Source: an uncultured Acidobacteriota bacterium (GTDB taxonomy: Bacteria; Acidobacteriota; UBA6911). From it: DNA of 64,000 nt. The stretch covers positions 155,554-219,553 of the forward strand of contig CAVXIH010000010.1 in assembly GCA_963761825.1 (NCBI GenBank), written 5' to 3'. A program made the position numbers and the translations under genes. Numbering within the stretch: the stretch's first letter is position 1; every line of letters begins with the position of its first letter. A model generated the notes under the pieces. That model was not told where the DNA came from, ran no database searches, and was given only the letters and a program-made list of their open reading frames with translations. Below are positions 10,998-44,750 of the stretch, one piece after another.

Positions 10998-13075
10998 TTA
11001 TGCTTGTCCTAGCTTTTTATTCGACTGGAGCACGTCTGCGACATGTTTCATGCCGAGATCTTCCAGCGTTTTTCTCTTGGGATAGCCTGTTTTGGAATCC
11101 CAGCCTTCAATCTGATAAAAGGCGGTCTTCCATTGTTCGACGCCCTTGTCATCAAGATACAGTTCCCGGCAGTCGACCCAGTCCCACTTGGAACCGTCGT
11201 AGACCGGCAGCGTGGTCCCGAAGTTGGCCATGGATGCGCCCCGTTTGTACATATACCCTGAAAACTTTTCGTTTTCCCGGGTCCTGCCCTGCATTACGAA
11301 GATAGCCCTCTTCAGATTCCAGGCTCTGCGCCCGATTTCGATGCCATCCAGAAAAGTTTGGTTTCTCCCTGTGACGGCGTTGAGGAAACGGGGCTCCGCT
11401 TCCGGTGTCGCTCCCTTTCCGTCGGGATTGGACGGGATTGAAATAGTTGCCCATCGCCCAATCGCAAAAGAGCGCCGATTCCTTATAGTATGTTGCATAA
11501 TGCTGGTGCCAGGCGACGAACTTGGCTTTGTGGTCGGAGTAGATGCCGGTTTTATACGCCTGCTCCCCCTGCCAGCTGTAATCGAACATGAAGGGATCGT
11601 CGCTGTAGGGAGGACTCGCGGAGGCCAGCAATTTGACATATTGCTCGCAGGACATCAGCTTGGTGGGGCCAAGCTGCATGTCATGGTTGTTGATGTCTCT
11701 GGAATCCATCAGGTTGCCATAGGCCCACTCCACCGTCGGCATAGTCCAGTGATCCATGTATCCCCATGCGGGCAAACGCAGGATGCTGTTCAGGTCGCTG
11801 ATTCTTCCGATTTTTTCGGCGAAGCGGACGATCCCGTCGGCGAGCAAATCTCCTATCCCGATGCGCTTGGCGATTGCCAGCGCAAATATTTCGGCAAATT
11901 CCACTTTTTCATACTGATCCATCGGCAGTGGATGGGTGTCTACCTTTTTCCCCGGACCGATGACGCCCATGTCATACAGTTTCTTGACATACCACCCGGC
12001 GCCGGTATTCGCCGGGCATATCGATCCTATTTCAGTGCCCGGCAGTGCCGGGAAACTTGCGGCTCCCATGAAGCAGAGGTCGGAAGCATTCAATCCGAGC
12101 TTCTGGACCGCATCGCTTGCTTTCCACATGTCCGATGTCGGCGTGCGTTTGTATGGAGGAGAAGGAAGACTATACCAAACCATTTCGGTGCAGCTGTCCG
12201 AATCCACGCCCTGAATCTGGCTCCTGCTGTGGCATCCGCGATTGCAGCCCATGCAGCAGGAAACTCCCGGCTTTATATCCCTGCCGGGGCCGCGCTGGCC
12301 GCTCATAGGGAATGTGGCCTCAAACCACTCCCGTGCTTCCAGCACTGCCTTGGGATTGGCTATCTTGATGCTGCCGGTGCCGACGACCGCGATGGCCTTC
12401 AGGTTTTTGGATCCGAAAACGCCGCCGAATCCTCCCTGGCCTGCGCCGGATCCTCCGGCATGAACGAGGGAGGCGATACGGGATTTGTTTTCACCGGCCG
12501 GGCCGATAGTCACGATGGCGGGGCGCTGCGTGGAATATTTGTTTCCCAGTTTCTGCCACTCGGAGCCATATCGGACGGGAGCCTTTGTGCTCTCCATCTT
12601 CCAGATTTCTTCCTGGGTTTCCCAAACGTTGAGTCCCCACAAGGGGCCGGCATCTTCAATCGTGACTATTGTCGTCAACGATATTGATATAGACGGGTGA
12701 TTCCGATTTTCCCTGGACTACCACACCATCCCATCCGGCAAGCTTGAGCGCGGGTGCGAAACTGCCGCCGAAATTGCTGTGGCCGAACCAATTGATCGGC
12801 CAGGTCTGCGCAGCCAGACCGGAGACGCTGGTTCTTCCTGCAAATGCGAGTCCCGTGCCGGCCAGCGGCCCCGTCATCAATGCCACAATGTTTCTCGGAT
12901 CAAAGGCATCTTGAAGGTCCCAGCCGCCCGGAGCTACGCAGAGGTCCCAGAAAAGGGCGGTTCCTGTTCCGTGCCCGCCGCCATAGGCTTCATATTTTGC
13001 TGAATCCAGAGCACTGATTTGTCTGGTTGTCAGATTGATAAGAAGTATCTTGCCTGCAAATCCCGGTGTTCCCAT
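10998..13075 (-). pseudogene. Aldehyde:ferredoxin oxidoreductase (tungsten AOR family, YdhV-like) split into three frames, with frameshifts near 12656-12680 and 11400-11435
   Basis: The N-terminus FAGKILLINLTT...YGGGHGTGT sits in ORF 12656..13075. The middle with CDWAMG is in 11152..12678. The C-terminus AWNLKRA...GWD..TG.P...LEDLG is in 10998..11639. Confidence 0.7.
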
Positions 13076-14223: not shown

Positions 14224-14967
14224 TTGGATTACCGCAATCGAAAAATCAGCACCAGGAATAAGAACCTCAGTGACTTTATATGCCAGCTTGCGGCCGGTGA
14301 GTTTCTGATTCCGACGTTTCAGCGCTTGTTCATTTGGGATCCGGAGCACATCGTCAATCTATGGGACAGCATCTACCGGTGCTATCCGATCGGCAGCATC
14401 CTGTGCTGGAAAACCAAAGTCCGGCTTCATGTCCACAGACAGTTGGGCGGATTTTATCTTCCGGAGGACAACGATTCCGACCAATCGTCACGGTCCTATA
14501 TTCTTGACGGGCAGCAGCGAGCTACGTCCCTGCTTGCCTCTTTTTACGGCGGGACGGGCAGAACCCGGGAGCAGTTTTCATTCGACTATACGCTCTACTT
14601 TGATTTGACCAAGGCGGAATTTTTCTTCGAGAAAGACTATTACAGGCATCGATGGGATGCCGATCCGGCGTTTCTCATTCGCCTGAAAGACGCCCCGGGC
14701 TTGTCGGCGGACTACTGTTGCTCGCTCACTTCTCTGCAGGGATTTTCCGAGTCGGTCAACAAGAATCTTGAGCAGTTGCAGTTTGTTTTTACGGATTACA
14801 GTATTCCCCTGATAAGTCTGGAGGGATACGACATTGCCGGCGTGTGCGGAATTTATGAGCGCATCAATCAGACCGGTGTGCGGCTGACGAATATGGACAT
14901 CCTGATCGCCAGAGGCTTTAAAAATTACGCTACCGTCGTCGAAGAGGATTTTCCCATTTCACAATAA
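14224..14967 (+). CDS. DUF262 (GmrSD N-terminal/ParB-like nuclease domain) protein. Stand-alone at 247 aa, with no DUF1524/HNH partner domain.
   Basis: FQR..W and DGQQR motifs of DUF262. Confidence 0.6.
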   Translation: MDYRNRKISTRNKNLSDFICQLAAGEFLIPTFQRLFIWDPEHIVNLWDSIYRCYPIGSILCWKTKVRLHVHRQLGGFYLPEDNDSDQSSRSYILDGQQRATSLLASFYGGTGRTREQFSFDYTLYFDLTKAEFFFEKDYYRHRWDADPAFLIRLKDAPGLSADYCCSLTSLQGFSESVNKNLEQLQFVFTDYSIPLISLEGYDIAGVCGIYERINQTGVRLTNMDILIARGFKNYATVVEEDFPISQ

Positions 14968-16122: not shown

Positions 16123-17361
16123 TTGATATATACTTGGCCTGCAAGTGAAGCGATTAAGCCAAAGCCAGGAGTGGGAAATTTGGATCGACCAGACATAGTA
16201 CCTGTGACAGATGCCAGAACCTTGCGGCAGTTTATCCGGCTTCCGTGGAAGGTTTATCGCGAGGATCCTTTTTGGGTTCCGCCTCTGATCGTCGACATGC
16301 AGAAGGTGCTCGATAAAACCAAGTATCCCTTTTTCGATCACTCCTGCGCGGATTTATTTATTGCCGTGCGGCATGGCGAGGTGGTCGGTCGCATCGCGGC
16401 CATCCTGAACAACAATCACAATCGCTACCACAACGAAAGCACCGCCTTTTTCGGCTTCTTCGAATCGATTCCCGACCAGGACGTCGCCTCGGCGCTGCTT
16501 GATCGTGCCGCCCAGTGGGCACGGGATCGTGGCATGCATCAATTGCGCGGGCCGATGAATTACTCGACCAATGAAACCGTCGGGACCCTCATTGAAGGAT
16601 TTGATTCCTGCCCCTGCCTCATGATGCCTCACAATCCGCGCTATTATCCCGAGCTGATTGAAAAAGCCGGGTTTGACAAAGCGATGGACCTCTATGCCTG
16701 GTGGTTGCTGACCGAAAAAGGGTTGAATCCCAAAATTATTCGAGTGGGCGAGATGGTTTTGAAGGAGGAAGGAATACGGATTCGTACCATCGACATGAAA
16801 AAGTTTTGGGATGAAGTTGAAGTTCTCAAAAGAATCTATAACGATGCATGGAGCACCAACTGGGGATTTGTGCCCATGACGGATGCCGAATTCGGGCACA
16901 TGGCCAAAGATCTGAAAACGATCGTGGATCCGCGCGTGGTCCTGATCGCGGAAAAAAACGGGGAGCCGGTCGCATTCTCGCTAGCTCTGCCCGATTTCAA
17001 CCAGGCGTTGATAAAGATCAATGGAAGGCTTCTGCCGTTTGGCCTTCCCAAGCTGATCTATTATGGCCGCCATATCCGGCAGGTCCGCGTGCTGGCTCTG
17101 GGAATCGCAAAGAAGGTGCAGAACTGGGGCGGTCTCGGTGCCGCGCTTTATTACGAATCTTTCCGCCGCGGCGTGGCCGCGGGATATCAAAGCTGCGAGT
17201 TTTCCTGGACACTGGAAAACAACGACCTGATCAATCGAAGCATGCGGCTCTTCGGCGCTGAGATTTATAAGCGCTACCGCATATATCAAAAAGCGCTGCC
17301 GACTTTTTCCAGTTCCTCTGCCAGTACATCGACCGCGGTCCGTATTTCCTCTTCGGTGTGA
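16123..17361 (+). CDS. GNAT/FemAB-like N-acyltransferase, a candidate bacterial ceramide synthase (bCerS-like). An alternative TTG start at 16180 follows an AGGAG box.
   Basis: Acyltransferase-like fold signature. Gene context with spt, ACP, acyl-ACP synthetase and a CerR-like reductase. Confidence 0.5.
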   Translation: MIYTWPASEAIKPKPGVGNLDRPDIVPVTDARTLRQFIRLPWKVYREDPFWVPPLIVDMQKVLDKTKYPFFDHSCADLFIAVRHGEVVGRIAAILNNNHNRYHNESTAFFGFFESIPDQDVASALLDRAAQWARDRGMHQLRGPMNYSTNETVGTLIEGFDSCPCLMMPHNPRYYPELIEKAGFDKAMDLYAWWLLTEKGLNPKIIRVGEMVLKEEGIRIRTIDMKKFWDEVEVLKRIYNDAWSTNWGFVPMTDAEFGHMAKDLKTIVDPRVVLIAEKNGEPVAFSLALPDFNQALIKINGRLLPFGLPKLIYYGRHIRQVRVLALGIAKKVQNWGGLGAALYYESFRRGVAAGYQSCEFSWTLENNDLINRSMRLFGAEIYKRYRIYQKALPTFSSSSASTSTAVRISSSV

Positions 17362-18821
17362 GTCGCGCTGATAAAAAACCTCAGCCTGGCGGCATTTTCC
17401 TCGACTGCAGGATGGACGATCGGCTGGACATTAATGCGCCGGGCAGCCATCGCGTGACTCACCTGCATGCTTTGATTCGAGTTGCCGATGATGGCAGGGA
17501 TGACGGCCGCGCCCGCAGACAATCCCGTATTGATTCCCTTGCTGCGGGCAAGGTCGAGAAAAAGTTTCGCTCGCCGGCGCAGCCGTTCGACGATTTCCGG
17601 GTGGCGCTGCATGAGCTCCAGAGATTTCAGCGCAGCGGCCGCATTCGGGGCGGGCATTCCCACAGAGTAGAGAAATCCCGGTGTCGTGTACTTAAGATAG
17701 TGCACAAGCTGCCTGCTGCCCGCGATGTAGCCGCCGCAGCTGGCAAAGGACTTGGACAGCGTCCCCATCCAGAGGTCAACGTCCTGAGGATCGATCCCGG
17801 GATAATGGTGGGCGATACCGCGTCCCGAAGGGCCCAGCACTCCTATGGAGTGTGCCTCGTCGACTATCAGGTTGCATCGAAACCGTTTCTTCAATTCGAT
17901 CAGGCCGGGCAGGTCACAGATATCGCCATCCATCGAAAAAAGCCCTTCAGTACAAATAAGGACTCTCCGGTATTGGCTGCGATACTGCGCCAGCGTCTGT
18001 TCAAGTTCCGTCAGATCGCCGTGTGAAAACGATCGCCGTTTCGCGCCGGATAAATATATTCCCTGAATGATGCTGTCGTGACAAAGAGCATCGTGCAGGA
18101 TCAGGTCATTCCTATCGAACAGGTGGCCGATGGTTGTGACGTTGGTGGCGTGGCCGCTGACAAAAACCACCGCATCCTCCACGCCGATATGCTGCGCGAG
18201 CCCCTGTTCGAGTTCCCGATGAATGGGGCGCTCCCCGGAAACCAGACGGCTGGCCGATACGGATGTTCCGAAACGGTCGGTGGCGTCCTTGGCGGCAGCG
18301 TTGACTTCGGGGTGTCCTGAAAATCCAAGATAGTTGTAGCTTGAAAAATTGAGCATCTCGACGCCATCGATGACGCTCCGGTTTCTTGCGGTCCCGTCAT
18401 GGGCGCGGAAATAGGGATTCTTCAGCCCGATCCGCTCCATTTCCTGAAGCCGCCGTTCGAGGTTTTTAACTTCGGGAAAATCCGCTATATTCCAGCACTC
18501 GGTGGCTGGCGGCGTTGCTTTTTCCGTTGCCGGGTTTTGCTTCGGATCCTGTATTTCACCGGGCGCCGCCTGCTCTGACGGGGACAATCTGCGAACAAGA
18601 TTCAGAAGATCACCCACGCTGCCGAGAGCGGCAACTTCTTCGTCCCTTATGCGTATCGAGAAGTCTTCCTCCAGAAGGCCTATCACCTCCATCACCGCCA
18701 CGGAATCCAGGCCGAGTTCTGAAATCTTTGTTTCCGTGTCAATGTTCCCGAGTTCCTTCAGGCTGATGTTATAAACAGCAGCCTTGAGAACGTGTATCAG
18801 TTCCTGATCCGTGCTTTTCAT
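17286..18821 (-). CDS. spt: Acyl carrier protein fused to a serine palmitoyltransferase-like alpha-oxoamine synthase
   Basis: N-terminal ACP motif GLDSVAVME. PLP-lysine motif GTLSKSF.SCGGY of the KBL/AONS/SPT family. Confidence 0.8.
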   Translation of the reverse strand: MKSTDQELIHVLKAAVYNISLKELGNIDTETKISELGLDSVAVMEVIGLLEEDFSIRIRDEEVAALGSVGDLLNLVRRLSPSEQAAPGEIQDPKQNPATEKATPPATECWNIADFPEVKNLERRLQEMERIGLKNPYFRAHDGTARNRSVIDGVEMLNFSSYNYLGFSGHPEVNAAAKDATDRFGTSVSASRLVSGERPIHRELEQGLAQHIGVEDAVVFVSGHATNVTTIGHLFDRNDLILHDALCHDSIIQGIYLSGAKRRSFSHGDLTELEQTLAQYRSQYRRVLICTEGLFSMDGDICDLPGLIELKKRFRCNLIVDEAHSIGVLGPSGRGIAHHYPGIDPQDVDLWMGTLSKSFASCGGYIAGSRQLVHYLKYTTPGFLYSVGMPAPNAAAALKSLELMQRHPEIVERLRRRAKLFLDLARSKGINTGLSAGAAVIPAIIGNSNQSMQVSHAMAARRINVQPIVHPAVEENAARLRFFISATHTEEEIRTAVDVLAEELEKVGSAF

Positions 18822-18918
18822 TATTGGAACGCTCTTCTTTGAAAAACCTGCCGCGCACAGGCGCCTGCATCGGCAGCAACGAAAATGGAGAATAGAAAGA
18901 CAGCATGCTGTGGTTCAG

Positions 18919-20640
18919 TCAGCTGAGGACCATGCCTTCTGCCGGAGAGGATTCTGTTACGCTGCCCGGGAATCCGAGCTGGCCCTCTTCAAACAGAGCC
19001 TTGGTTTGCCTGCGCTGCAGTTTGCCGCTGGAAGTTTTCGGAATAGATCCACGCCCGACAAGCACGACCTTGTGCACCGCAAGGCCGAGCGCAGATCGCA
19101 CCTGATTGCCGATTACCAGCGCCAGTTCTTCACTATTCGTCATGGTGGTTTCCGCAATGATTACAAGCTTCTCGGTGGAATCCCCATTGACCGAGAATGC
19201 CACTACACTGCCTTTGCGAATGCCCGCGATTTCTTCGACAATCCATTCGATTGCCTGCGGAGGATAATTGCGACCATTGATAATGACCAGATCTTTCTGC
19301 CTCCCGGAAACATACAGATCGCCGTTGAGGATAAAGCCGAGATCGCCGGTATGGAGCCAGCCTCCCTGCAACAGTTGGCGCGAAGCTTCCGGATTTTGAA
19401 AATATCCAGGAGTAACACTCGGTCCGCGGAAGACAATTTCACCCACCTGGCCTTCCGGAAGCGGTTTGCCTGTGTTGTTCAGGATCCTGATTTCGTGGCC
19501 CGGGAAAGTGCGCCCGCAGGAGACCAGCTCAAATTTCCTCTTCGGATCCGTTACTTCTTCGTCGGAGCCGATGGGACGCGCTATGCTCCTGGTCTCATAG
19601 GCGTGGCGGTCGATTACCAGCTTTTGCATAGGTTTATGCAAATGGTCGAAAGCGATCGCAAGCGTTGCTTCCGCCATCCCATAGCACGGCAGGACCGCAT
19701 TCGGTTTGAGCCCCAGGGGCGCAAAGGCGGCAATAAAGCTTTCCATCGTTTTGGGGTTGATCGGTTCCGCGCCGCAGCCGAGGACGCGCAGACAGGATAA
19801 ATCCGGATTAATGCGAGACGTCTTGGGCGCTCGCTTCGCAGCAAGTTCAAAAGCGAAATTTGGTCCGAAGGTGATCGTTGCGCGATATTTATGGACCGTC
19901 TCCATCCATACGCCGGGATGCTTTACGAACGCAATTGTCGGAATGAATACTACCGGAATTTGCGCGACCATCGTTGCGATCACAAATCCAATGAGACCCA
20001 TATCATGATAGAGGGGAAGCCAGCTTACGGCGCGATCGGTATCCGGGTGAATTTCGAGACTCTTGATGGTTGCCTTTGCGTTGGCAATGAGATTTCTGTG
20101 TGTGACGATGACTCCTCTCGGCGCCGAGGTGGATCCCGACGTGAATTGGAGAAAGCAGGGCTCGTCCGGCCTTGTCCCTGGCTCGTTCAGCGTCAGGTCC
20201 CCCATTTGCTGCAGGGATTCAATGTCCAGAATGCTTTGTAGCGTGGGCACGCGGGAAAGAACAGGCTGAAGCAAAGGAATGAGTTCTTTGGTGGTGAGCA
20301 GCGCTTTTGCGCCGGAGACACGCAAAATGCCAGCCGCTCTGTCGATATAATTATCCAGTCGGCCAAGTGCCAGGGGAGGGTACATAGGAACGGGCATGAC
20401 TCCCATGCTGACCGCCCCAAGGAAAGATAGAACAAAATCTTCCGGGGCGTTCAAAACCAGGGCAAGACGATCCCCTTTCGTCAAGCCGAGTGTTTGAAGG
20501 CACGCACCGAGCCTCTTAGCCTCCCTGCAAGCCTCCGAATAGGACCAGTCGGCGGGCGTGAGGTCGTTGTCAAGGAATGTATAGCCTTTATGCTCTATGT
20601 GCGCAATCGCATCACACGCAGCATTCAGCGTCTCTTCCAT
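18919..20640 (-). CDS. Fatty acyl-AMP ligase / acyl-ACP synthetase (adenylate-forming)
   Basis: 573 aa, ANL superfamily, with a FAAL-like N-terminus. Confidence 0.75.
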   Translation of the reverse strand: MEETLNAACDAIAHIEHKGYTFLDNDLTPADWSYSEACREAKRLGACLQTLGLTKGDRLALVLNAPEDFVLSFLGAVSMGVMPVPMYPPLALGRLDNYIDRAAGILRVSGAKALLTTKELIPLLQPVLSRVPTLQSILDIESLQQMGDLTLNEPGTRPDEPCFLQFTSGSTSAPRGVIVTHRNLIANAKATIKSLEIHPDTDRAVSWLPLYHDMGLIGFVIATMVAQIPVVFIPTIAFVKHPGVWMETVHKYRATITFGPNFAFELAAKRAPKTSRINPDLSCLRVLGCGAEPINPKTMESFIAAFAPLGLKPNAVLPCYGMAEATLAIAFDHLHKPMQKLVIDRHAYETRSIARPIGSDEEVTDPKRKFELVSCGRTFPGHEIRILNNTGKPLPEGQVGEIVFRGPSVTPGYFQNPEASRQLLQGGWLHTGDLGFILNGDLYVSGRQKDLVIINGRNYPPQAIEWIVEEIAGIRKGSVVAFSVNGDSTEKLVIIAETTMTNSEELALVIGNQVRSALGLAVHKVVLVGRGSIPKTSSGKLQRRQTKALFEEGQLGFPGSVTESSPAEGMVLS

Positions 20641-20834
20641 ATCCTCCTCGTCCCGTCAGGGCGCGTTGGATTGCAGGTTCCCTGCAAGGGCAGGCATATG
20701 AAAACCTTAATCGCCCCTGGATCCAATCCCGGCAACCTTTGTTATCACGCTATCTTGATTTGCTGGTCGAACATAGCCTGTTTTGCGCAGACTTTCAATC
20801 AGTTTTCCCAGGGGATAGCGCCTATCATTGCCAG

Positions 20835-21836
20835 CTATAGCCATCCTCGATTCTGGTACCAACGAACTGTTTCGTTTATTCCCCTGGCCAGGTCTGTCGC
20901 AGGGCTGAAACCCAGCGCGGCCAACGCCTTGGATGAATCGCATATCCAGGATGTCTGGAGCAGTTCCCGGACCTTTTGGCTGTTCAGTGTTGCCGGCCGG
21001 CCAGTGACTTTCGCCCAGAGATCTCCCGCGCCGCCTATTGCTTCAGCAAGCCATTGAGGAAAGGAGATCTGCCGATAGTGCTTTCCCAGAGCCTGCGCTA
21101 TCGCGCGTCCGATGTCCTCCCAGGTATAGATCTCCGGGCGGGAGACAAAATAGATCGATCCTGAAGGCGTGTCGCAGTTGCCTGCCTGGATGCAGACAGA
21201 GGCCAAATCATGGACGTGAATCAGGCTGAATCGACGGATCAAGCGTCCCGGCGTGAACAGGCAGCCCCGCTTGATCATGCGGAATGCAAGAAGCGTTTCT
21301 GTGTCATACGGGCCATACACCGCCGAGGGTCGAAGAATCGTGACAGGGAAGGCGTGTGAAAATTGCAGGACTTCCTGTTCAGAAAGAAGCTTGCTCTCTC
21401 CATACCAGGAAATTGGATTTGGCTTGTCCTCTTCGTTCAGCCCCCGGTTGCCCGTGCCGGGTCCTGCGGCAGCCAGACTGCTCATGTGCACAAATCGTCT
21501 CAAATCAGGATTCGTTTCTGCCAGCACTTCCAGAAGAAGGCGAGTCCCTGCCTGATTGACCCGCACATAGTGCTCACGCCGCGCAGCTTTGATCAGTCCG
21601 GCCAGATGATAAACGGTTTGAACTCCGCGCACGGCTTCCCGGATGGAATCCCGGTCGTTCATATCTCCAATTACGAGGCGCACATGCAGTTTTTGAAGCG
21701 CATGGGTATCGCTTGTGTTTCTCACGAGGCATGTAACCTCGTGTCCTCTCTGCAACAGTGCTTCGACAAGATTTCGCCCCACGAAGCCTGTTCCGCCGGT
21801 GACAAGCACACTCCCGTTTGAATTGTCTGTCTGCAT
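20835..21836 (-). CDS. NAD(P)-dependent epimerase/dehydratase-family reductase, a candidate 3-ketosphinganine reductase (CerR-like)
   Basis: VTGGTGFVG Rossmann motif. Start taken at MQTDNSN. Confidence 0.65.
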   Translation of the reverse strand: MQTDNSNGSVLVTGGTGFVGRNLVEALLQRGHEVTCLVRNTSDTHALQKLHVRLVIGDMNDRDSIREAVRGVQTVYHLAGLIKAARREHYVRVNQAGTRLLLEVLAETNPDLRRFVHMSSLAAAGPGTGNRGLNEEDKPNPISWYGESKLLSEQEVLQFSHAFPVTILRPSAVYGPYDTETLLAFRMIKRGCLFTPGRLIRRFSLIHVHDLASVCIQAGNCDTPSGSIYFVSRPEIYTWEDIGRAIAQALGKHYRQISFPQWLAEAIGGAGDLWAKVTGRPATLNSQKVRELLQTSWICDSSKALAALGFSPATDLARGINETVRWYQNRGWL

Positions 21837-22101
21837 TATTCCGTTTCTTCTGACTGAGGTTTGAAGCCGCCCCCGACACGCTATCGTTTTATACAATGGA
21901 TCATAGGAACGACGCAAGCAAGCGCTGCTCTTCATGCGCACCTTCCTCACTGCAAACAAAAACATGTGGGTCGGGGCTCTTTATTTCAACCCCGACGCAT
22001 TGCGACTCCAAACAGATGTATCAAAGTTTTGAGACATTTGAAGCTCCGACCCACATATTTTACTGGTTTGTGATGATGGAGTTGCCGCCTTCGAAAATCA
22101 A

Positions 22102-24235
22102 TTAAAGCAGCAGGACGGAAAGCAGTGTTGCGGGAATCAACCAATAGGCTGTTCCCGCCAATCCCGCGAGGGGTGCCAAGACCAGGCTTGCGAGAACCGA
22201 TCCCATGCATCCGCCGATCAAATCTGCGGCATACAGCGGGGTGATCACTTTCCCTTGATCGCTCACGGCATACAGGCCGGCAAACGCGAATACTCCGGAC
22301 ACGAAGAAACCTGTCAGCGCCAGCAGTCCCAGGATTTCCAGAAGGCCTGCTTCGCCGCCGGAATTTATTTCCAGGCCAATAGCCGCACTTAGCCCTGCAA
22401 ATCCCGTAAACAGCGCAATCCCGAATCCTTTGGAGATACGATGTTGCATCCGAGCGAAGGCAAATGCTCCCAGGGCCAATCCGCCCATGAAGCCTGTGAG
22501 TAGTATCCCAATATCCTGGAAAAGAATGCCGTGCTTGGTCTGATAGTGCAGAAGAAGAATCGTCTCCAATACCATGCCTGCAAATCCCGCCATTCCCGTT
22601 AGCACTGTGCGTTTTATGGACCACGATGAGCGCATCAGCAGCAGGAAGGGCAGACTGAGAACAACCAGGATGAAGGTTTTGCGACCGCCGCTCAATTCGG
22701 GAAATGAAAAATCCCAGAGTATTGAGGAGGGGACGAATTTGGAAAGCCAGATCAGAATCGTGTACTGATAGCAGATGGGCCGGGTATCGGTATTGACCGG
22801 GGCGGTGCCGGATTCGAGAATCCGGGAGATCTCGCGAAATCGGTCGTTGGTATAGATATATCGGAGAAACTTCGCCGAGATAATTCTGGCCCGGATCCCT
22901 CTGTTTTCCAGCCGGGCAACTTGAACGAAAGGGTCCTTTGGCAAAGGATCCATAGATCCAATCACAACATTCGTGCTGCCCGGAATGAAAACAACTTCCG
23001 GAAAGACCGATCTGGCTGCCCTATAGATGCTGACCATTCTGCGCGTAAGCTGTGGAGTCCAGAAGTTTTCCGACGACTGAAGGCTGAATGCGACAATGCC
23101 CTGTGCGTTCAGTTTCGCATGGCATTGTCGAAAGAATTCCCGGGTATAAAAGCGATTTGTCTGTCCGGACGTCGGCTCCGGCATGCCCACCAAAATAAGG
23201 TCATATTTAGGCGCCCGATTGAGGAACCGGCGCGGGTCGTCATAGATAATCCGAACATTGGCGGCGCGAAGGGAGTTTTGTATGTCCAACGGGAGGTGTT
23301 TGGCAACAATGCGGATCAGAGCGGGATTCTGCTCCACATAATCCACCGACTCAGGAGAGTGCAACAGGACTTCGCGAACGGTCCCTTCAATGCCCCCGCC
23401 GAGCACCAGAACCTTTTTGGGATTTGGATGCTGTAAGGCTGCCGGATGGACAAACTCTTCAGCCCGGGTGCCTTCGCTGTCAAACAAAAGGGCGTCGTTT
23501 TCGAATACAGATGTCTGGCCATCCCGGGAAAGAACCGTAATTCTTGAATAGGGAGTATCCCTTGTCTCCACAAGATTCCGGTGGGTCCAGGATGTCATGA
23601 GCCGGTCGAGCGGGGAAGACTTCCAGGCAAGTGCTATCAAAATGCCGATAGCAACCATGGCGGTAAGGCGGAGCCAGCGCGAGCGGCTTCGGCGAAAATT
23701 CAGCAACGACGATCCGGCTGCAACCCCCGCACACAGCAGGGCGATAAAGAAATTCTGACAGCCGAATTTTAAGAAATAGCGTGGCGCAGATTCCTCCTGC
23801 CAATCCCCCCAGGCTTTCGATGCCATAGGCTGTTGCCAGCGACTTTGTCCCTGCCATATACGCCTTGGCCGTCCACTGAAACAGCAGACCAAGAAGCAGT
23901 CCCGCAGGCAGGAGAGAAACACACACAACGCCAATCTGCGTGTGCAGCGGAAGATATCCGCCCGGCACATCGGAAAAGAGAAGGCGGATGGAACGGATGA
24001 AGGCTACATCAACAGGAATGCTGATGGACAATAGCAGAAAAAGAAATTGGATGCTGGAAGAGGACGGAGATTTGGTTTTACGACGCAGCATGGTGCCGCA
24101 GGCGCTGCAAAGCAGCCAGACCCCCAGGGCAAGCGTGTAGATCAACTCAACGCCATAAAAGGCAACGCTGAGTTCCCGGAGCAGCACAGCCTGCGCCAGA
24201 ATGGAGACAAATCCGACGGCGAATAGATATCCCAC
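22102..24235 (-). pseudogene. Spermidine-synthase-like aminopropyltransferase domain flanked by N- and C-terminal polytopic membrane domains. Frameshift near 23740-23760.
   Basis: The N-terminal TM domain is in ORF 23480..24235 and the rest in 22102..23970. LVLGGGIEGTVREVL is SpdS-like. Confidence 0.6.
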
Positions 24236-24237
24236 AT

Positions 24238-25758
24238 TTACCTGAATTGCGATTCACTGAAAACATCTGCCTGAAAGACCTGGAATTTTGCGTTCCGCTT
24301 CCAGCATCCCGCTTGCAGCCCCGCTTTCATACAGAGGTTGTCGAGCATTTCCGCCCGATCCCAATGATTTTCCGTCGCTACCTGTGGAAGGAATACTGCG
24401 GATGTCCCCGCAGCGGACATCAGAACACCATCGCGGCCGACGACGATTTCGTTGGAGGAAGCGATGGCCTTCATGGGAGTCAGAACAGAGATTTCAATTT
24501 CAAGATTTTTCAGTTCATTGATTTCGACAGGCGCAAATCTGGAGTCGCCGAATGCCGACTGCAAAGCCATCGATCCCACCGTTTTACCAAGCGCAGTATC
24601 TCCCGGGATGTGTCCGATGCAGCCCCGAAGCTGTCCGGCCTTTCTGAGCGTAACAAACGCGCCTTGCGGAAAATCCATTCGTGCCGGAAGATTCCGCGCC
24701 AGCGGGAGCGTTTGTGTCGTCAGATACCAGAGGATGGATTCCCTCGCGAATGCGAGCAGAATTTTCTTTTCTGATTTCTGCAGCGGCGTTGCCCGGGAGG
24801 GCGCGGTGGCGCGATTCAAGACAGTCGTATTACTCGGAGTCTTTCCCGGAGCCAGAATGACCGCTCCGTACCCGACAGTGCGCGCAGCGTCATAGCCTAC
24901 CAGGACATCCCCGGAGTTTGCGTAGCCTGCGACCACGGCGCGCGTGGCGCCCAGCGCCTTGGCTGCCGCCATCCCTGCAAGGATTGCGGCTTCCCCGCAC
25001 GCTCTCGTTTCCAGATTAGGCAAGTCCAGAACACGCATCACGGAGGTGACCCGTGAAGGATCCAGGGCGGCAATGGTTGTGAGAGTCAGAGAATCCGCTT
25101 TTTCTGCATTCGTATTCGTCGGATAGTGGGACAAGTCCGAGCTGATCACGATCAACGCCCGCCGGCCCTTTAAAACCTTTCCCAGCGCCTCGCCGAAGCG
25201 CAGGCACATTTTGCTGTCCGGCGGATGGATGATAGCGGGGACAATCCGGGCATTCGGGAAAAGGGTTTGCACAAAAGGAAGCTGAACCTCGATGGAATGC
25301 TCTCTTGTATGAACCTCGCGGTTTCGATTGCAGTCCGTGCACTCGGCCAGCAGGGCGGAGGTGATCTCTTCATCAACCAGGCTGTTGCCCAGAGGAGTGC
25401 GAAAAGAACCATAGTTTCCCAGCGAAATCCCGCTGAAATTCCCTGTTGTGTGATTCACTCCCAGCAGCACAACGACGTCATACGTACGTCCAGCGACCTG
25501 ACGGTATGCGTCCGCACAAATCTGGCCGGAATATATATATCCGGCGTGAGGCACAATGAGGGCGAGCGGCTTCTCCATGGGAATTTCGACAGAATCCTGG
25601 AGATACTGCTGAATGGCAAGCTTCAGCTTCTGCGGATCGGCCGGGTAGAACTGGCCGGCAACCGCCGGCGGCCGTGTGTCGGCCGGCTTGGTGCCGGAGC
25701 CTGCAGATGAAGCCAGAATCACCAGGGCTGCAATGGCAAGAGCCAGGCTTCTTTTCAT
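24238..25758 (-). CDS. Memo1-like (AmmeMemoRadiSam protein B) fused to an AMMECR1 domain (protein A), with an N-terminal Sec-type signal peptide
   Basis: Signal MKRSLALAIAALVILASSA. Memo motif LIVPHAGYIYSG. AMMECR1 motif GQLRGCIGH. Confidence 0.75.
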   Translation of the reverse strand: MKRSLALAIAALVILASSAGSGTKPADTRPPAVAGQFYPADPQKLKLAIQQYLQDSVEIPMEKPLALIVPHAGYIYSGQICADAYRQVAGRTYDVVVLLGVNHTTGNFSGISLGNYGSFRTPLGNSLVDEEITSALLAECTDCNRNREVHTREHSIEVQLPFVQTLFPNARIVPAIIHPPDSKMCLRFGEALGKVLKGRRALIVISSDLSHYPTNTNAEKADSLTLTTIAALDPSRVTSVMRVLDLPNLETRACGEAAILAGMAAAKALGATRAVVAGYANSGDVLVGYDAARTVGYGAVILAPGKTPSNTTVLNRATAPSRATPLQKSEKKILLAFARESILWYLTTQTLPLARNLPARMDFPQGAFVTLRKAGQLRGCIGHIPGDTALGKTVGSMALQSAFGDSRFAPVEINELKNLEIEISVLTPMKAIASSNEIVVGRDGVLMSAAGTSAVFLPQVATENHWDRAEMLDNLCMKAGLQAGCWKRNAKFQVFQADVFSESQFR

Positions 25759-25852
25759 GGTTTTCCCCTTGAATATTGGATCCTTCGCATTTTTAGCCCG
25801 CATGTTTCACGATCTTTGTTTGGCAGGCAGGCTCGAACGCCAAAAACATATT

Positions 25853-27049
25853 TTAGGACCAGACACCTGCAATGGCTCTTCCGCAGAACTTGCAGTTCCC
25901 GCGCACAATATTCAGCTCCGCTATAAAAAAGGAGCTGCGTCGAATCACAACCTTCCCGCATTGGGGGCAGTATGTGTGATTGCCCGGATGGTCCGGCACA
26001 TTCCCGATATAGGCATAGCGAATGCCTTTGCTCATCGCGCAGTTCCGTGATCGCTCCAGTGTCGCCACCGGAGTGGGCGGGAGATGGAGGAGCTGATAAT
26101 CCGGGTGAAACCGCGTGAAATGAATCGGGACATCCGGCCCGATCTCTCCCATGATCCAATCTGCCAGTCCGGCCATCATTTTGTCTGAATCATTCAATGT
26201 CGGGACAACCAGATTGACGATTTCAAGGTGCACGCCGCTTTTGGCTATTTGCCGGATGCTGTTGAGAACCGGTCGAAGCTCCGCGCCGCATACATTGCGA
26301 TAAAAATCCTCGCTGTAACCCTTCAGGTCGATCTTAATCGCGTCCAGGATGCCGCACATTTCCTTCAGGGGTTCGGCGTTCATAAAGCCGCAGCTGATCA
26401 TCACGCAGCGCAGCTTCTGTTTTTTCGCCAACGCAGCGGTGTCGGCCAGATACTCCATAAACACGGTCGGTTCATTATAGGTAAAAGCTACGATAGGAGA
26501 TTGCCGCGCGGATGCCGATCCGACAATTGCGGCAGGCGCTACGAACGGCGTATCGAAATCCTCAGGCCGGGATTGAGAGATTTCCCAGTTCTGGCAGAAC
26601 TTGCAGCGCAACGGACAGCCCGAGGTCGCAAAGGAAAACGCATCGGAGCCTGGAAGGAAATGATAAAAAGGTTTCTTCTCGATCGGATCGATATGGATCG
26701 TTACTGGCCGGCCATAAACCAGGCTGCGCAACTCGCCGTTGACGTTCATGCGGGCGCGGCATTTTCCCCGCTCGCCCGGCTTGATGACGCAGGACTGGGC
26801 GCAGAGAAGGCATTTCACAATCGCATTTTTGCCGGCATGCGCCCCGACTTTAAGTTTTGATTCGGGCTTGTGGCATTGCATGCAGTCGATGCCGGGAGAT
26901 GCCGTGGAAATCCAATAGCGCGCTTTGGGCGCCGACCGGATTAAATCTCCTGTGCGGTCAAAAACCGCGGCTTGGGCAAACGCAAGGGAACTGCCGATTG
27001 TTGATCCGATTTTTGTTGCCGTAATCAGGAACTCACGTCGTGAAATCAT
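25853..27049 (-). CDS. AmmeMemoRadiSam-system radical SAM enzyme (PflA-like) with an N-terminal twin-arginine (Tat) signal extension
   Basis: SRREFLITATKIGSTIGSSLAFAQA Tat signal. CPLRCKFCQN radical SAM motif. The N-terminal C..C..C..GERGKC element is typical of this subfamily. Confidence 0.75.
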   Translation of the reverse strand: MISRREFLITATKIGSTIGSSLAFAQAAVFDRTGDLIRSAPKARYWISTASPGIDCMQCHKPESKLKVGAHAGKNAIVKCLLCAQSCVIKPGERGKCRARMNVNGELRSLVYGRPVTIHIDPIEKKPFYHFLPGSDAFSFATSGCPLRCKFCQNWEISQSRPEDFDTPFVAPAAIVGSASARQSPIVAFTYNEPTVFMEYLADTAALAKKQKLRCVMISCGFMNAEPLKEMCGILDAIKIDLKGYSEDFYRNVCGAELRPVLNSIRQIAKSGVHLEIVNLVVPTLNDSDKMMAGLADWIMGEIGPDVPIHFTRFHPDYQLLHLPPTPVATLERSRNCAMSKGIRYAYIGNVPDHPGNHTYCPQCGKVVIRRSSFFIAELNIVRGNCKFCGRAIAGVWS

Positions 27050-30691: not shown

Positions 30692-32460
30692 ATGGCAAAG
30701 CTTGATCCAACTAAACTTGCTGACTGGCAGATCGCATTTGAATGCGAAAAAGATATGAAGACAGTCCAGCAGCTTGCGGAAGGACTCGGAATCAAAGACA
30801 TGGAATTGATTCCCTATGGACATTATTATGGCAAGGTTGATTATCGAGCCATAATGGAGAGAGTAAAAGACAGACCGGACGGCAAATACATTGACGTTAC
30901 GGCGATCACCCCGACTCCTCTCGGGGAAGGCAAAAGCACTTCCACCATGGGCTTGGTTCAAGGCCTGGGAAAACGCGGAAAGAAAGTAACCGGCGCAATC
31001 CGTCAACCTTCCGGCGGACCGACCATGAACATCAAGGGAAGCGCGGCAGGTGGCGGCTTGGCGCAGTGCATTCCACTCACCCCGTTCTCACTTGGATTGA
31101 CCGGCGACATCAACGACATCATCAATGCGCACAACCTGGGAATGATCGCTCTCACTTCCAGAATGCAGCATGAATACATCAATGACGATGCCTTCCTGGC
31201 ATCCAAGAACCTGAAACGGCTGGATATCGATCACAGAAACGTTGAGATGAAGTGGGTTATCGATTTCTGCGCTCAAGCGCTCCGCAATATCACCATCGGC
31301 TATGGGCGGCAAGATGGATGGCTTCATGATGCAGTCCGGATTCGCCATTGCCGTAAGCTCCGAATTGATGGCGATTCTCGCTGTCGCCACCAGCCTCAAA
31401 GATATGCGTGAAAGAATCGGCAAAATGGTGGTTGCTTACAATAAAAAAGGCGATCCCGTCACGACAGCCGATCTTGAAGTGGATGGCGCCATGTGCGCAT
31501 GGATGGTCAATACTATCAATCCAAGCCTGCTGCAGACGATTGAAGGACAGCCCATTTTTGTTCACGCTGGACCGTTTGCCAATATCGCCATCGGTCAATC
31601 CTCCATCGTGGCGGATAAACTGGCCCTTAAGCTTGCGGATTATCACCTCACCGAAAGCGGATTCGGCGCCGACATCGGCTTCGAGAAATTCTGGAATCTC
31701 AAGTGCCGCTATTCCGGCCTGAAGCCGAATTGCGCCGTTGTGGTTGCCACTGTTCGCGCTCTCAAGAGCCATGGCGGCGGCCCCGCCGTTCCTCCGGGCA
31801 AAAAGCTGGATCCCGTTTACTCACAGGAAAACGTTGAGCTGGTGGAAAAAGGCTTGTGCAACCTTCTCAAACACATTGAGAACGTGAAGAAAGCCGGCAT
31901 CAACCCGGTCGTCTGCATCAACTCGTTCTACACGGACACAAAGGCCGAAATCGATTGCATCAAGAGAAACGTCGAAGCTATGGGCGCACGTTGCGCGGTT
32001 TCCGAACACTGGCTGAAGGGCGGCGACGGCGCGTTGGAGCTCTCCGATGCCGTCATTGATGCTTGCAACGAACCGAACAATTTCAAGTTCCTCTATGAAC
32101 TTGAAATGCCGCTCGGCAAGAGAATTGAAACTCATTGCCAAGGAAATCTATGGCGCAGATGGTGTAAGCTACACTCCGGCTGCCAAAGCCAAGCTCATCA
32201 AGATGGAAAAAGATCCTGAGCTTGCCAAACTCGGCACATGCATGGTCAAGACTCATCTCAGCCTTTCCCATGATCCCACCCTCAAAGGGGCACCCAAAGG
32301 CTGGACGTTGCCAATCCGCGACATCCTGACGTACAAGGGCGCGGGCTTTGTGGTTCCGGTTTCCGGGGATATCACCCTTATGCCGGGCACCGCATCGGAT
32401 CCTGCATACAGAAGAGTTGATGTAAATGTGGAAACCGGAAAAGTTACCGGTGTGTTCTAG
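30692..32460 (+). pseudogene. fhs: Formate--tetrahydrofolate ligase split over three frames, with frameshifts near 31290-31300 and 32125-32135
   Basis: [17 protein letters not shown]-loop in frame 1. GGKMDGF...[16 protein letters not shown] in frame 2. [11 protein letters not shown]...TGVF C-terminus in frame 3. Confidence 0.8.
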
Positions 32461-43397: not shown

Positions 43398-44750
43398 GTG
43401 AGCAGTCTGGCCGAAACCGTAACGATCTCTCTGATCGCTACAGCCATCGGCATTGGATTGCTGATCTCCTTCATTCTATTGCGCCGAGCTTGGCGGAAAC
43501 GACATTTCCAGCGTCGTGACCAGCGGATCCAATACATTCGCGATAATTGGCAAAAAATTCTAAGCGAAGAGATTCGAGTTAAAGACTGGTTTTCGATAAA
43601 TATGAACCGCGATATAGTCGAGGAAATTCTTCTGGATCGACTCGCGGTGGCAGAGCCGGTTAAACTGCAATCGTTGCAGGAATTCGCGCGCCACAGCGGC
43701 CTCATGGATAGGAGAATTCGCCAGGTCGGCAAGAGCAAGGGCTGGAAGAAACGTCTGGCACTGATCGCGCTTGGTCGCATGCAATTGCCTGAAAGCATCC
43801 CTGCTCTTTCAGAAGCGTTGCAGGATCCGCGCGACGAAACTGTTGTGGATGCCATTCGCGCGCTTGGCCAGGTGAGCACGCCCGAAGCCGCACAGGCAAT
43901 CCTGCGGCAAGTTTCTCGAAAACCTCAGCAATGCCCTCCGCAAACAGTGCAAGCGGCATTAGCCCAATGCTATCGATCCGATCCGAAATTATTGTTAAGC
44001 GAAGTCCGGGAGGCGGATGATGTGTTGAGGCCAATCCTGGCGCGTGTGCTGGCAGAAGTTGCTGATCAAAGGCTGAGCGGCGACCTGATGGAGCTTGCGC
44101 TCGATCCTTTGGCAGAAGTGCGCGCATCAGCGGCACGCATTATTGCAGTGGTCAAGCCTTCCTACGCGCTCAACGTTCTTTCCATGCTTGCCGGGGATCC
44201 AGAATGGTTTGTTCGATTGCGCGCCGCCGTTGCGATTGGCGAACTGGGAGAAAGGCAAGGAATCCCCTTACTGATAAACGCGCTTTGCGATCACAACCGG
44301 TTCGTTCGTTTGCGGGCAGCCTCTCAACTGATCTGCTTCAAGGGTGACGAAGCCCAGGTGATCCAATTAGCAATGCAAACCGGGGATCGCTATGCCCTGC
44401 AGGCGCTTATTTCCGAAATCGAGCGCTCCGGGCGTCTGCCTGAAATGGTCAACGGCCTCGCGGCAGATGCTCCCAACCCGGTTATTGAGTCGGTTCTCCT
44501 GGCCGTTCTTCAGAACGGTTTCGCAAGCATTCTGGTAGACCTGTTGCTCAACCATCCGGATCGCCGTGTTTGCACTCGCCTGGCGCGACTCCTGGCTCGA
44601 TCCGGAGACGCGGCTCTTCTGGAACACTTGGCTCAGATCCATAAGCCGGATCTCGGGCTGGGACAGCAAAAGCTGCTGGGCTGGGCGATTGCACACCTGA
44701 AAGAAACAATCATTGCTTGCGAAGCAGGCAAGGAGGCGGTGTCTGCATGA
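43398..44750 (+). CDS. Membrane-anchored HEAT-repeat (PBS-lyase-type) protein
   Basis: GAGGT box 7 nt upstream of GTG 43398. One N-terminal TM helix followed by multiple HEAT-like repeats. Confidence 0.6.
   Translation: MSSLAETVTISLIATAIGIGLLISFILLRRAWRKRHFQRRDQRIQYIRDNWQKILSEEIRVKDWFSINMNRDIVEEILLDRLAVAEPVKLQSLQEFARHSGLMDRRIRQVGKSKGWKKRLALIALGRMQLPESIPALSEALQDPRDETVVDAIRALGQVSTPEAAQAILRQVSRKPQQCPPQTVQAALAQCYRSDPKLLLSEVREADDVLRPILARVLAEVADQRLSGDLMELALDPLAEVRASAARIIAVVKPSYALNVLSMLAGDPEWFVRLRAAVAIGELGERQGIPLLINALCDHNRFVRLRAASQLICFKGDEAQVIQLAMQTGDRYALQALISEIERSGRLPEMVNGLAADAPNPVIESVLLAVLQNGFASILVDLLLNHPDRRVCTRLARLLARSGDAALLEHLAQIHKPDLGLGQQKLLGWAIAHLKETIIACEAGKEAVSA

What the first reader, a model, noticed from the sequence alone, without database searches (positions are those of the whole stretch)
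16123..21836. Putative bacterial sphingolipid/ceramide biosynthesis cluster with an ACP-Spt fusion
- The gene set matches the bacterial ceramide pathway recently defined in Caulobacter (Spt, dedicated ACP, acyl-ACP synthetase, NAD-dependent epimerase-family CerR and GNAT-like bCerS). 
- Here ACP is fused to the N-terminus of the serine palmitoyltransferase-like alpha-oxoamine synthase. 
- The candidate ceramide synthase is convergent and overlaps the spt 3' end by 76 bp (17286-17361).
Basis: partly seen in the sequence, partly recalled or inferred. Interest (0 to 1): 0.6.

Follow-up and report, generated by a model that had tools for sequence, protein, structure and literature searches.

The report
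Ceramide-type lipid cluster with PKS-type ACP-AOS
An uncultured soil/sediment Acidobacterium carries a four-gene cluster that very probably makes a ceramide-like membrane lipid, but the first enzyme is not the usual serine palmitoyltransferase: it is a carrier-protein-fused enzyme borrowed from polyketide assembly lines.

Summary
Four genes lie at 16123-21836. They are a tandem-GNAT protein, an ACP-alpha-oxoamine synthase (AOS) didomain protein, a fatty acyl-AMP ligase (FAAL) and an extended SDR.

All five functional parts have homologues in the E. coli BL21/Caulobacter ceramide cluster:
- GNAT vs YghO (aca/bCerS homologue): 36% identity over the full length, E 6e-84.
- FAAL vs AasR: 34%, E 3e-105.
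- SDR vs epi (CerR homologue): 28%, E 1e-36.
- AOS vs Spt: 31%, E 2e-52.
- ACP vs AcpR: a match around the Ser motif.

In other phyla the GNAT family sits directly beside an AOS in 59 of 73 loci, and near an SDR in 46 of 73. The pathway-level reading is therefore supported.

"ACP-Spt fusion" is only partly right. The AOS does not fall in the Spt clade. Together with its FAAL, it is closest (45-72% identity) to AOS domains at the C-terminus of type I PKS/PfaA-like synthases and to FAAL-ACP-AOS tridomain proteins (bootstrap 100/100). The GNAT, in contrast, is sister to GNATs paired with ordinary unfused Spt.

The most likely history is that a PKS-type FAAL/ACP-AOS module replaced spt in this Acidobacteriota clade.

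Serine use is inferred, not shown.

The 76-bp overlap is a recent stop-codon loss.

Rating: new variant of a known kind, moderate interest.

The parts
16180..17361 (+). bCerS-like tandem-GNAT N-acyltransferase (YghO/aca family). The ORF opens at 16123; the probable start is TTG 16180. The last 20 codons are a lineage-specific tail.
   Evidence: 36% identity over the full length to E. coli BL21 YghO, E 6e-84. Family alignment and tail. SD/start. AF2 model matches tandem-GNAT structures (MshD, 5kf1, 2wpw; pLDDT only 63).
17286..17361 (.). 76-bp convergent overlap between the GNAT 3' tail and the 3' end of the ACP-AOS gene.
   Evidence: ORF coordinates. Present only in the window and L002; gaps of 5-206 bp in L001, L003, L005, L006, L007 and L012.
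18591..18821 (-). ACP domain (residues 1-77) of the didomain protein. The phosphopantetheine Ser40 codon is at 18702-18704.
   Evidence: PF00550, 7e-9. LGLDS Ser is kept in 115/115 fused homologues plus the window protein. Local match to E. coli AcpR around the motif.
18501..18590 (-). Poorly conserved Pro/Ala/Glu-rich interdomain linker (residues 78-107).
   Evidence: Per-residue conservation of 0.0-0.4 across 115 homologues, except one conserved Pro at residue 81; ACP and AOS flanks are conserved.
17286..18500 (-). Alpha-oxoamine synthase (PLP) domain, residues 108-511. The Schiff-base Lys357 codon is at 17751-17753.
   Evidence: PF00155, 5e-48. Best solved relatives are Spt 3a2b/8guh (237 bits) and eukaryotic SPT2. 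Motifs SYNYLG, DEAHS, GTLSKSF and RLRF. Phylogeny.
18919..20640 (-). Fatty acyl-AMP ligase / acyl-ACP synthetase (AasR-like).
   Evidence: NCBIfam FAAL PRK09192, 500 bits. 34% identity over the full length to E. coli AasR, E 3e-105. 51% identity to the FAAL of a Myxococcota FAAL-ACP-PKS-AOS cluster.
20835..21836 (-). Extended SDR, CerR/epi-like 3-keto reductase candidate (ORF opens at 21965).
   Evidence: PF01370, 4e-38. 28% identity over the full length to E. coli epi, E 1e-36, against 49 bits over half the length to the unrelated RfaD. 35-43% identity to SDRs beside GNAT-AOS pairs in other phyla.

Best explanation
The four genes encode a self-contained route to an N-acylated long-chain amino alcohol, that is, a dihydroceramide-type lipid.
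1. The FAAL adenylates a free fatty acid and loads it onto the phosphopantetheine arm of the ACP domain (Ser40) of the ACP-AOS protein.
2. The tethered PLP-dependent AOS domain (Lys357) condenses the acyl-ACP with an amino acid, most likely L-serine, releasing CO2 and a 3-keto long-chain base.
3. The YghO/bCerS-like tandem GNAT N-acylates that base.
4. The CerR/epi-like SDR reduces the 3-keto group.

In evolutionary terms, the FAAL and ACP-AOS module is of polyketide assembly-line ancestry. In this clade of uncultured Acidobacteriota it occupies the place beside bcerS that a canonical unfused spt holds in other phyla.

Shown here: domain content, homologies, conserved catalytic and carrier residues, conserved neighbourhoods and phylogenetic placement.

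Inferred: the amino-acid substrate, the order of acylation and reduction (taken from the Caulobacter model), and the lipid product.
For: Part-for-part homology to the E. coli BL21 cluster. In that cluster AasR, AcpR and Spt were shown to make 3-oxo-sphinganine, and yghO and epi are the CC_1154/CC_1164 homologues (PMC9386255).

Conserved neighbourhoods:
- The GNAT family occurs in at least 533 GTDB species genomes across many phyla.
- An AOS lies within 600 bp in 59 of 73 non-clade loci. Only 6 of 58 loci with enough flanking sequence lack one.
- An SDR lies within 3.5 kb in 46 of 73 loci.
- All 8 GTDB loci of the window's clade keep GNAT and ACP-AOS adjacent, and those with enough flank keep the SDR; 7 of 8 also keep the FAAL.

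Second, independent pairing: nine metagenome loci combine a FAAL-ACP-AOS tridomain protein with a YghO-like GNAT (31% identity to YghO, E 3e-66). Seven of the nine also have an SDR, usually convergent. One locus also has an ABC exporter.

Functional integrity:
- The ACP Ser40 and the ACP fold are under purifying selection, with a variable linker.
- The AOS keeps the PLP and substrate-contact motifs. These include the Thr-x-Ser-Lys motif shared with Spt, where BioF and Kbl have Gly-Lys (residue roles from PMC10196870).

Module swap: the GNAT of the window clade is sister, at 100/100, to GNATs paired with unfused Spt-profile AOS (L008-L010). Its AOS and FAAL are closest to PKS-linked ones.
Against: - The AOS is outside the clade of known Spt and shows no preference for Spt profiles.
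- Similarity to Spt has misled before: Nostoc Npun_R3567 has Spt-like residues but makes no KDS (PMC8895605).
- Most FAAL-ACP-AOS genes in metagenomes (about 68 of 80 loci) have no GNAT or SDR within 8 kb, so the module is not intrinsically a ceramide module.
- The GNAT is transcribed convergently, not in the same operon.
- I could not check whether the genome also holds a canonical spt elsewhere.
- No lipid data exist for this lineage.
- The SDR has no signal peptide, whereas Caulobacter CerR is reported as periplasm-facing (PMC11087976).
Confidence: 0.7

Rival explanations
1. The pathway logic is the same, but the AOS uses an amino acid other than serine (glycine, alanine or another). The product would then be a 1-deoxy- or otherwise non-canonical 'pseudo-ceramide' rather than a true sphingolipid.
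For: The AOS belongs to the PKS-offloading clade, not the Spt clade. From my own knowledge, members of that broad kind use different amino acids: PigH/RedN use serine, RedL glycine, SxtA arginine. Profile scores do not favour Spt. S. multivorum Spt itself accepts Ala and Gly weakly (PMC10196870).
Against: The Thr-x-Ser-Lys motif and the other mapped serine/PLP contacts are as in Spt, unlike the Gly-Lys of BioF and Kbl. The downstream enzymes are homologues of those that act on serine-derived bases. The best solved relatives are Spt enzymes.
Confidence: 0.2
2. FAAL, ACP-AOS and SDR form a small secondary-metabolite or signal pathway (an amino-ketone or amino-alcohol, CAI-1/LAI-1-like or a polyketide-like lipid). 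It would be functionally independent of the neighbouring, convergently transcribed GNAT.
For: The nearest relatives of the AOS and the FAAL sit in PKS clusters without a GNAT. Most FAAL-ACP-AOS loci lack a GNAT or SDR nearby. The GNAT is on the opposite strand.
Against: GNAT-AOS adjacency is the rule for this GNAT family (59 of 73 loci) and is kept in all clade members. A second lineage independently pairs FAAL-ACP-AOS with a YghO-like GNAT and an SDR. Similarity to CqsA is low (74 bits, against 237 for Spt).
Confidence: 0.08
3. The AOS is a housekeeping BioF or Kbl (biotin synthesis or threonine catabolism), and the cluster is a chance neighbourhood.
For: The top NCBIfam hit by score is bioF (346 bits), and JGI annotates the relatives as 8-amino-7-oxononanoate synthase.
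Against: The score is below the bioF cut-off of 426. The protein has a fused ACP with a conserved Ser, an adjacent FAAL, Ser-Lys rather than Gly-Lys at the active site, and it separates from E. coli BioF and Kbl in the tree. No bio or tdh genes are nearby.
Confidence: 0.02

Closest known systems
Rhodobacterial five-gene ceramide system (Caulobacter CC_1154/1162-1165; E. coli BL21 yghO-aasR-epi-acpR-spt)
   Same: It has the same five functions: acyl-ACP synthetase of FAAL type, dedicated ACP, AOS condensing enzyme, extended-SDR reductase and YghO-family N-acyltransferase. All are detectable homologues. The acyl chain is delivered on a dedicated ACP rather than on CoA (PMC9386255).
   Different: Here the ACP is fused to the AOS. 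The AOS (31% identity) and the FAAL (34%) are only distant relatives of Spt and AasR and belong to a PKS-associated lineage. The GNAT is convergent. There are no LptF/G-like or head-group genes alongside. The SDR has no export signal.
Unfused spt-bcerS-cerR clusters of Bacteroidota, Ignavibacteria, Bryobacteraceae, Zixibacteria and others (the 'Spt-like clade' of Ding et al. 2024, PMC11334938)
   Same: The GNAT is orthologous (45-67% identity; sister at 100/100 to L008-L010). The SDR is a homologue (35-43% identity).
   Different: Their AOS is unfused, gives the CFB Spt model as its best profile hit (447-566 bits; below the 640 cutoff), lies on the same strand as the GNAT and has no FAAL or ACP. 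It is only 30-39% identical to the window AOS.
Terminal AOS domains of type I PKS/PfaA-like synthases, and ACP-AOS proteins of assembly lines (for example the Myxococcota FAAL-ACP-[KS-AT-ACP-KR-DH-AOS]; prodiginine PigH/RedN ACP-ACP-SerT; the A-CP-PLP proteins of Milano et al. 2013, PMC3870968)
   Same: These are the nearest sequence relatives of both the AOS (45-72% identity) and the FAAL (51%). The logic is the same: FAAL loading, a carrier-bound acyl chain, then decarboxylative offloading.
   Different: The window has no KS, AT, KR or DH domains. The module is reduced to FAAL plus ACP-AOS and is coupled to ceramide-type tailoring enzymes (GNAT, SDR).

Membership tests
bCerS / YghO (aca) family of bacterial ceramide synthases | Full-length sequence homology to a family member named in the literature | tested here: met
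   36% identity, 374 aligned residues, E 6e-84 to E. coli BL21 YghO (ECD_02850), listed as the aca homologue of CC_1154 in PMC9386255.
bCerS / YghO (aca) family of bacterial ceramide synthases | Direct similarity to the experimentally characterised Caulobacter CCNA_01212 | not tested
   The sequence could not be obtained with the tools. Stankeviciute et al. 2022 is not held.
bCerS / YghO (aca) family of bacterial ceramide synthases | Genomic association with an AOS and a CerR-type SDR | tested here: met
   AOS within 600 bp in 59 of 73 loci, plus 8 of 8 loci of the window's clade. SDR within 3.5 kb in 46 of 73 loci.
bCerS / YghO (aca) family of bacterial ceramide synthases | N-acylation of a (3-keto) long-chain base | not testable with these tools
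   Needs a biochemical assay. The AF2 model (pLDDT 63) only shows a tandem-GNAT fold.
Serine palmitoyltransferase (Spt) | AOS-fold PLP enzyme with the catalytic Lys and the His/Asp/His/Arg set | tested here: met
   PF00155. Lys357 lies in GTLSKSF; DEAHS and RLRF are conserved.
Serine palmitoyltransferase (Spt) | Placement in the clade or profile of known Spt | tested here: not met
   NCBIfam Spt models score 320, 245 and 178 bits against cut-offs of 640, 500 and 670, and bioF scores higher. In the NJ tree the AOS groups 100/100 with PKS-type AOS, apart from the group [unfused GNAT-adjacent AOS + E. coli Spt]. Control Spt-like AOS score 447-599.
Serine palmitoyltransferase (Spt) | Use of L-serine and a long-chain acyl thioester to give 3-ketosphinganine | not testable with these tools
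   Indirect evidence only: Ser before the Schiff-base Lys as in Spt, and the genomic context.
AasR/AcpR acyl-delivery system | FAAL-type ligase plus a dedicated carrier with a DS(L/V) phosphopantetheine site encoded with the AOS | tested here: met
   FAAL is 34% identical to AasR, E 3e-105. The ACP Ser40 is conserved. However, the FAAL is closer (51%) to a PKS-cluster FAAL.
CerR (epi) ceramide reductase | Extended-SDR homologue of CC_1164/ECD_02852 encoded with spt and bcerS | tested here: met
   28% identity over the full length, E 1e-36, against E 3e-11 over half the length for the unrelated RfaD. Neighbourhood. No NCBIfam model reaches its cut-off; HpnA scores 157 against 368.
PKS-offloading / ACP-tethered AOS domains | Nearest sequence relatives are AOS domains C-terminal to a carrier protein in PKS or FAAL fusions | tested here: met
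   The top 150 representatives (43-72% identity) are mostly 800-2800-aa proteins with the AOS at the C-terminus. Architectures found: KS-AT-ACP-KR-DH-AOS, KS-ACP-AOS and FAAL-ACP-AOS.

The most novel reading that the evidence does not exclude
In a clade of uncultured Acidobacteriota, the committed step of sphingolipid-type lipid synthesis is carried out by a minimal assembly line of polyketide ancestry (FAAL plus ACP-AOS), not by an Spt orthologue. This module displaced the canonical spt beside bcerS. A second lineage made the same pairing independently, using FAAL-ACP-AOS tridomain proteins. If so, the first step of bacterial ceramide synthesis has arisen or been recruited more than once. Surveys that define producers by Spt phylogeny would then miss whole lineages, and the long-chain base could carry unusual chains or head carbons.
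Probability: 0.5. Interest if true: 0.6.

Novelty: new variant of a known kind. Interest (0 to 1): 0.5.

Why it matters
Bacterial sphingolipid producers are currently predicted from Spt phylogeny plus bCerS and CerR (for example PMC11334938). AOS outside the 'Spt-like' clade are dismissed as unrelated to sphingolipids.

This cluster shows bCerS- and CerR-type genes tightly and repeatedly coupled to an AOS from outside that clade, together with its own FAAL and a fused carrier domain.

If it is functional, three things follow:
- The list of likely ceramide producers widens to include abundant uncultured Acidobacteriota.
- It provides a natural, compact four-gene system for making long-chain bases from free fatty acids.
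- It documents module exchange between polyketide assembly lines and membrane-lipid pathways.

It is directly testable by heterologous expression.

Tried and rejected
- **Literature access.** I looked for the Caulobacter bCerS, CerR and Spt sequences. Stankeviciute 2022 is not held and the ISME supplement has no sequences. I used the E. coli BL21 cluster from RefSeq instead.
- **Literature searches.** Searches for ACP-fused Spt, FAAL+AOS or Acidobacteria sphingolipids found nothing specific. Only the 2013 catalogue of A-CP-PLP architectures turned up.
- **PDB sequence search with the GNAT.** No hit.
- **Promoter/terminator scan.** No more sites than in shuffled sequence.
- **Rfam.** Nothing in the window.
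- **Second copies.** There is no second AOS, GNAT, FAAL or SDR copy in the 64-kb window.
- **Flanking genes.** The wider flanks are mainly central-metabolism and transport genes; no head-group or Lpt-like transport genes are adjacent.
- **BioF/Kbl and CqsA readings.** Rejected on motif, tree, fusion and context grounds.
- **Overlap as a regulatory feature.** Rejected, because it is confined to the window and its nearest relatives.


Full report
**What is there.**
The window comes from an uncultured Acidobacteriota bacterium. A Microflora Danica MAG contig (L002) is 98% identical at the protein level. Between 16123 and 21965 there are four genes.
- A 412-codon ORF on the + strand has a weak GNAT hit. 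Its real start is probably TTG 16180, with AGGAG 7 nt upstream, giving 393 aa like its 94% relative P0001.
- A 511-aa protein on the - strand has an N-terminal PP-binding (ACP) domain, a roughly 30-residue variable linker, and a class I/II aminotransferase-fold alpha-oxoamine synthase (AOS) domain.
- A 573-aa AMP-binding enzyme has as its best NCBIfam model a fatty acyl-AMP ligase (FAAL) subfamily.
- The fourth gene is an NAD-epimerase-family extended SDR, probably 333 aa starting at 21836.

The flanks are unrelated. On one side are a TrkA-type K+ channel and a GmrSD_N protein. On the other are a membrane spermidine-synthase-like protein and AmmeMemoRadiSam genes. Further out, the flanks are mainly central-metabolism and transport genes.

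**The fusion and the overlap.**
The ACP-AOS fusion is genuine.
- At least 115 protein clusters of about 510 aa (68-96% identity) carry both Pfam domains.
- The phosphopantetheine serine (Ser40, LGLDS) is kept in 115 of 115 of these homologues, plus the window protein itself.
- The ACP and AOS parts are conserved, while residues 78-107 are not.

The 76-bp convergent overlap exists, but it comes from a 20-aa tail found only in the window, L002 and P0001. All other family members stop at ...YRIYQKAL, and six related genomes have gaps of 5-206 bp between the two genes. It is a recent loss of a stop codon, not a design feature.

**Link to the known ceramide pathway.**
The Caulobacter sequences were not obtainable. 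However, PMC9386255 states that E. coli BL21(DE3) carries the same five genes:
- aca = yghO/ECD_02850, the homologue of CC_1154
- aasR
- epi, the homologue of CC_1164
- acpR
- spt

The paper shows that the E. coli AasR, AcpR and Spt together make 3-oxo-sphinganine. I fetched that locus from RefSeq and compared each part.

| Window protein | E. coli BL21 protein | Identity | Coverage | E-value |
|---|---|---|---|---|
| GNAT | YghO | 36% | full length | 6e-84 |
| FAAL | AasR | 34% | full length | 3e-105 |
| SDR | epi | 28% | full length | 1e-36 |
| AOS | Spt | 31% | AOS domain | 2e-52 |
| ACP | AcpR | local match around the serine motif | local | 7e-6 |

As a baseline, the SDR against the unrelated extended SDR RfaD gives only 49 bits over half the length.

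**Neighbourhood evidence.**
The GNAT family is large: at least 533 GTDB species genomes in many phyla. Among 73 loci outside the window's own clade:
- 59 have an unfused AOS within 600 bp of the GNAT;
- only 6 of the 58 with enough flanking sequence lack one;
- 46 have an SDR within 3.5 kb that is 35-43% identical to the window's.

This is the spt-bcerS-cerR arrangement described in the literature (PMC11334938). The GNAT is therefore a bona fide member of the family that accompanies long-chain-base synthesis.

**The twist: the AOS is not an Spt orthologue.**
The unfused GNAT-adjacent AOS score 447-566 bits on NCBIfam's CFB-type Spt model, and in five of six cases that is about 125 bits above the next non-Spt model. 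E. coli Spt passes the beta-proteobacterial Spt model. The window AOS scores 346 on bioF, 320 on Spt-CFB and 301 on Kbl, with no preference for Spt.

An exhaustive search of 1.84 billion representative proteins shows that its closest relatives (43-72% identity) are mostly 800-2800-aa proteins with the AOS at the C-terminus. Pfam shows three architectures among them:
- KS-AT-ACP-KR-DH-AOS (PfaA-like)
- KS-ACP-AOS
- FAAL-ACP-AOS

In a neighbour-joining tree of 114 AOS domains:
- the window clade plus these PKS/ACP-linked domains form one group in 100 of 100 bootstraps;
- the sister of the window clade is a PfaA-like PKS from Myxococcota MAGs;
- the unfused GNAT-adjacent AOS group with E. coli Spt (59/100);
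- Kbl groups with BioF (76/100).

The Myxococcota locus reads FAAL, ACP, then PKS-AOS. Its FAAL is 51% identical to the window FAAL, against 34% for AasR. FAAL and AOS therefore share an assembly-line ancestry.

**Module swap.**
In the GNAT tree, the window clade is sister (100/100) to GNATs from L008-L010, whose neighbour is an ordinary unfused AOS that scores best on the Spt profile. One partner (GNAT) follows the canonical cluster while the other (AOS with FAAL) follows PKS systems. The simplest reading is that a FAAL/ACP-AOS module replaced spt next to bcerS in an ancestor of this Acidobacteriota clade. I could not test whether a canonical spt survives elsewhere in these genomes.

**Independent support for functional coupling.**
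Among 80 metagenome loci retrieved with more distant ACP-AOS proteins, most encode FAAL-ACP-AOS tridomain proteins or FAAL followed by ACP-AOS. Nine non-clade loci also carry a YghO-like GNAT (37-40% identity to the window's; 31% to YghO, E 3e-66). Seven of the nine also have an SDR, usually convergent. In L101 there is an ABC exporter in between. These GNATs form a different branch from the window's, so the pairing of an ACP-tethered AOS with bCerS- and CerR-type enzymes has probably arisen at least twice.

**Mechanism and what remains inferred.**
The AOS keeps the following:
- the Schiff-base lysine (Lys357);
- the Asp/Ala/His PLP contacts (DEAHS);
- the FSMDG serine;
- the C-terminal RLRF arginine;
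- Thr-x-Ser-Lys as in Spt, where E. coli BioF and Kbl have Gly-Lys.

I mapped these roles by motif onto the S. multivorum Spt structures (PMC10196870). This is compatible with serine use but does not prove it. The Nostoc Npun_R3567 case shows that Spt-like residues can mislead (PMC8895605). The order of N-acylation and keto-reduction is taken from the Caulobacter model (PMC11087976). Unlike Caulobacter CerR, which is reported as periplasm-facing, the SDR here begins directly with its Rossmann motif.

**Verdict.**
The label "ACP-Spt fusion" should be replaced by "ACP-AOS of PKS-offloading type acting in the Spt position". This is a new variant of a known kind of system, of moderate interest. 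I found no description of it in the searchable literature, although the bare A-CP-PLP architecture was catalogued in 2013 (PMC3870968).

Noticed in passing
window 22102-24235 (-): The membrane spermidine-synthase-like gene (723 aa in the relative L001) is split by a frameshift near 23717-23775 in the window. It is intact in L002 and L003. It is syntenic with the cluster throughout the clade, and its role is unknown.
   Followed up: partly
window 30692-32219 (+) and 11152-13075 (-): Formate-THF ligase is split into two overlapping ORFs. An aldehyde:ferredoxin-oxidoreductase-like gene also appears split (139 aa + 508 aa). Together with the SpeE-like frameshift, this suggests indel errors in the assembly.
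   Followed up: no
L002 11122-12655: In the 98%-identical relative, the ACP-AOS reading frame is broken (438-aa stop-to-stop ORF, with the ACP hit in another stretch). This is probably an assembly indel. Other relatives have intact ORFs of 505-529 aa.
   Followed up: partly
window 44717-46183 (+): A family-2 glycosyltransferase has a weak hit to Glyco_transf_21, the ceramide glucosyltransferase family (31.6 bits). It lies in a TPR/HEAT gene group 25 kb from the cluster. It is a possible head-group enzyme, but there is no evidence for that.
   Followed up: no
L007 908-5039: This Acidobacteriota relative has GNAT, ACP-AOS and SDR but no FAAL between them. The loading enzyme may be encoded elsewhere.
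   Followed up: no
L101 6147-16400 (also L095, L103, L110, L113, L124, L136, L149, L153): A second cluster type: a FAAL-ACP-AOS tridomain protein (1089 aa), an ABC ATPase, an ABC-2 permease, a YghO-like GNAT, a convergent SDR and a GDSL lipase. It may be a ceramide-type pathway with its own exporter.
   Followed up: partly
L167 7925-20364: A Myxococcota MAG encodes FAAL, an 80-aa ACP, then a 2347-aa KS-AT-ACP-KR-DH-AOS synthase. These are followed by fasciclin, SpoIIM-like and LpxR (lipid A deacylase family) genes. This is an uncharacterised PKS-made amino lipid locus, and it holds the closest relatives of the window's FAAL and AOS.
   Followed up: partly
window 24238-27049 (-): A fused Memo/AMMECR1 protein and a radical SAM protein (the AmmeMemoRadiSam trio) lie directly upstream on the same strand. 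This arrangement is conserved in L001.
   Followed up: no
window 14224-14967 (+): A 247-aa protein consists only of a GmrSD_N (DUF262) domain, without the usual C-terminal nuclease domain. It is conserved at the same position in L001.
   Followed up: no
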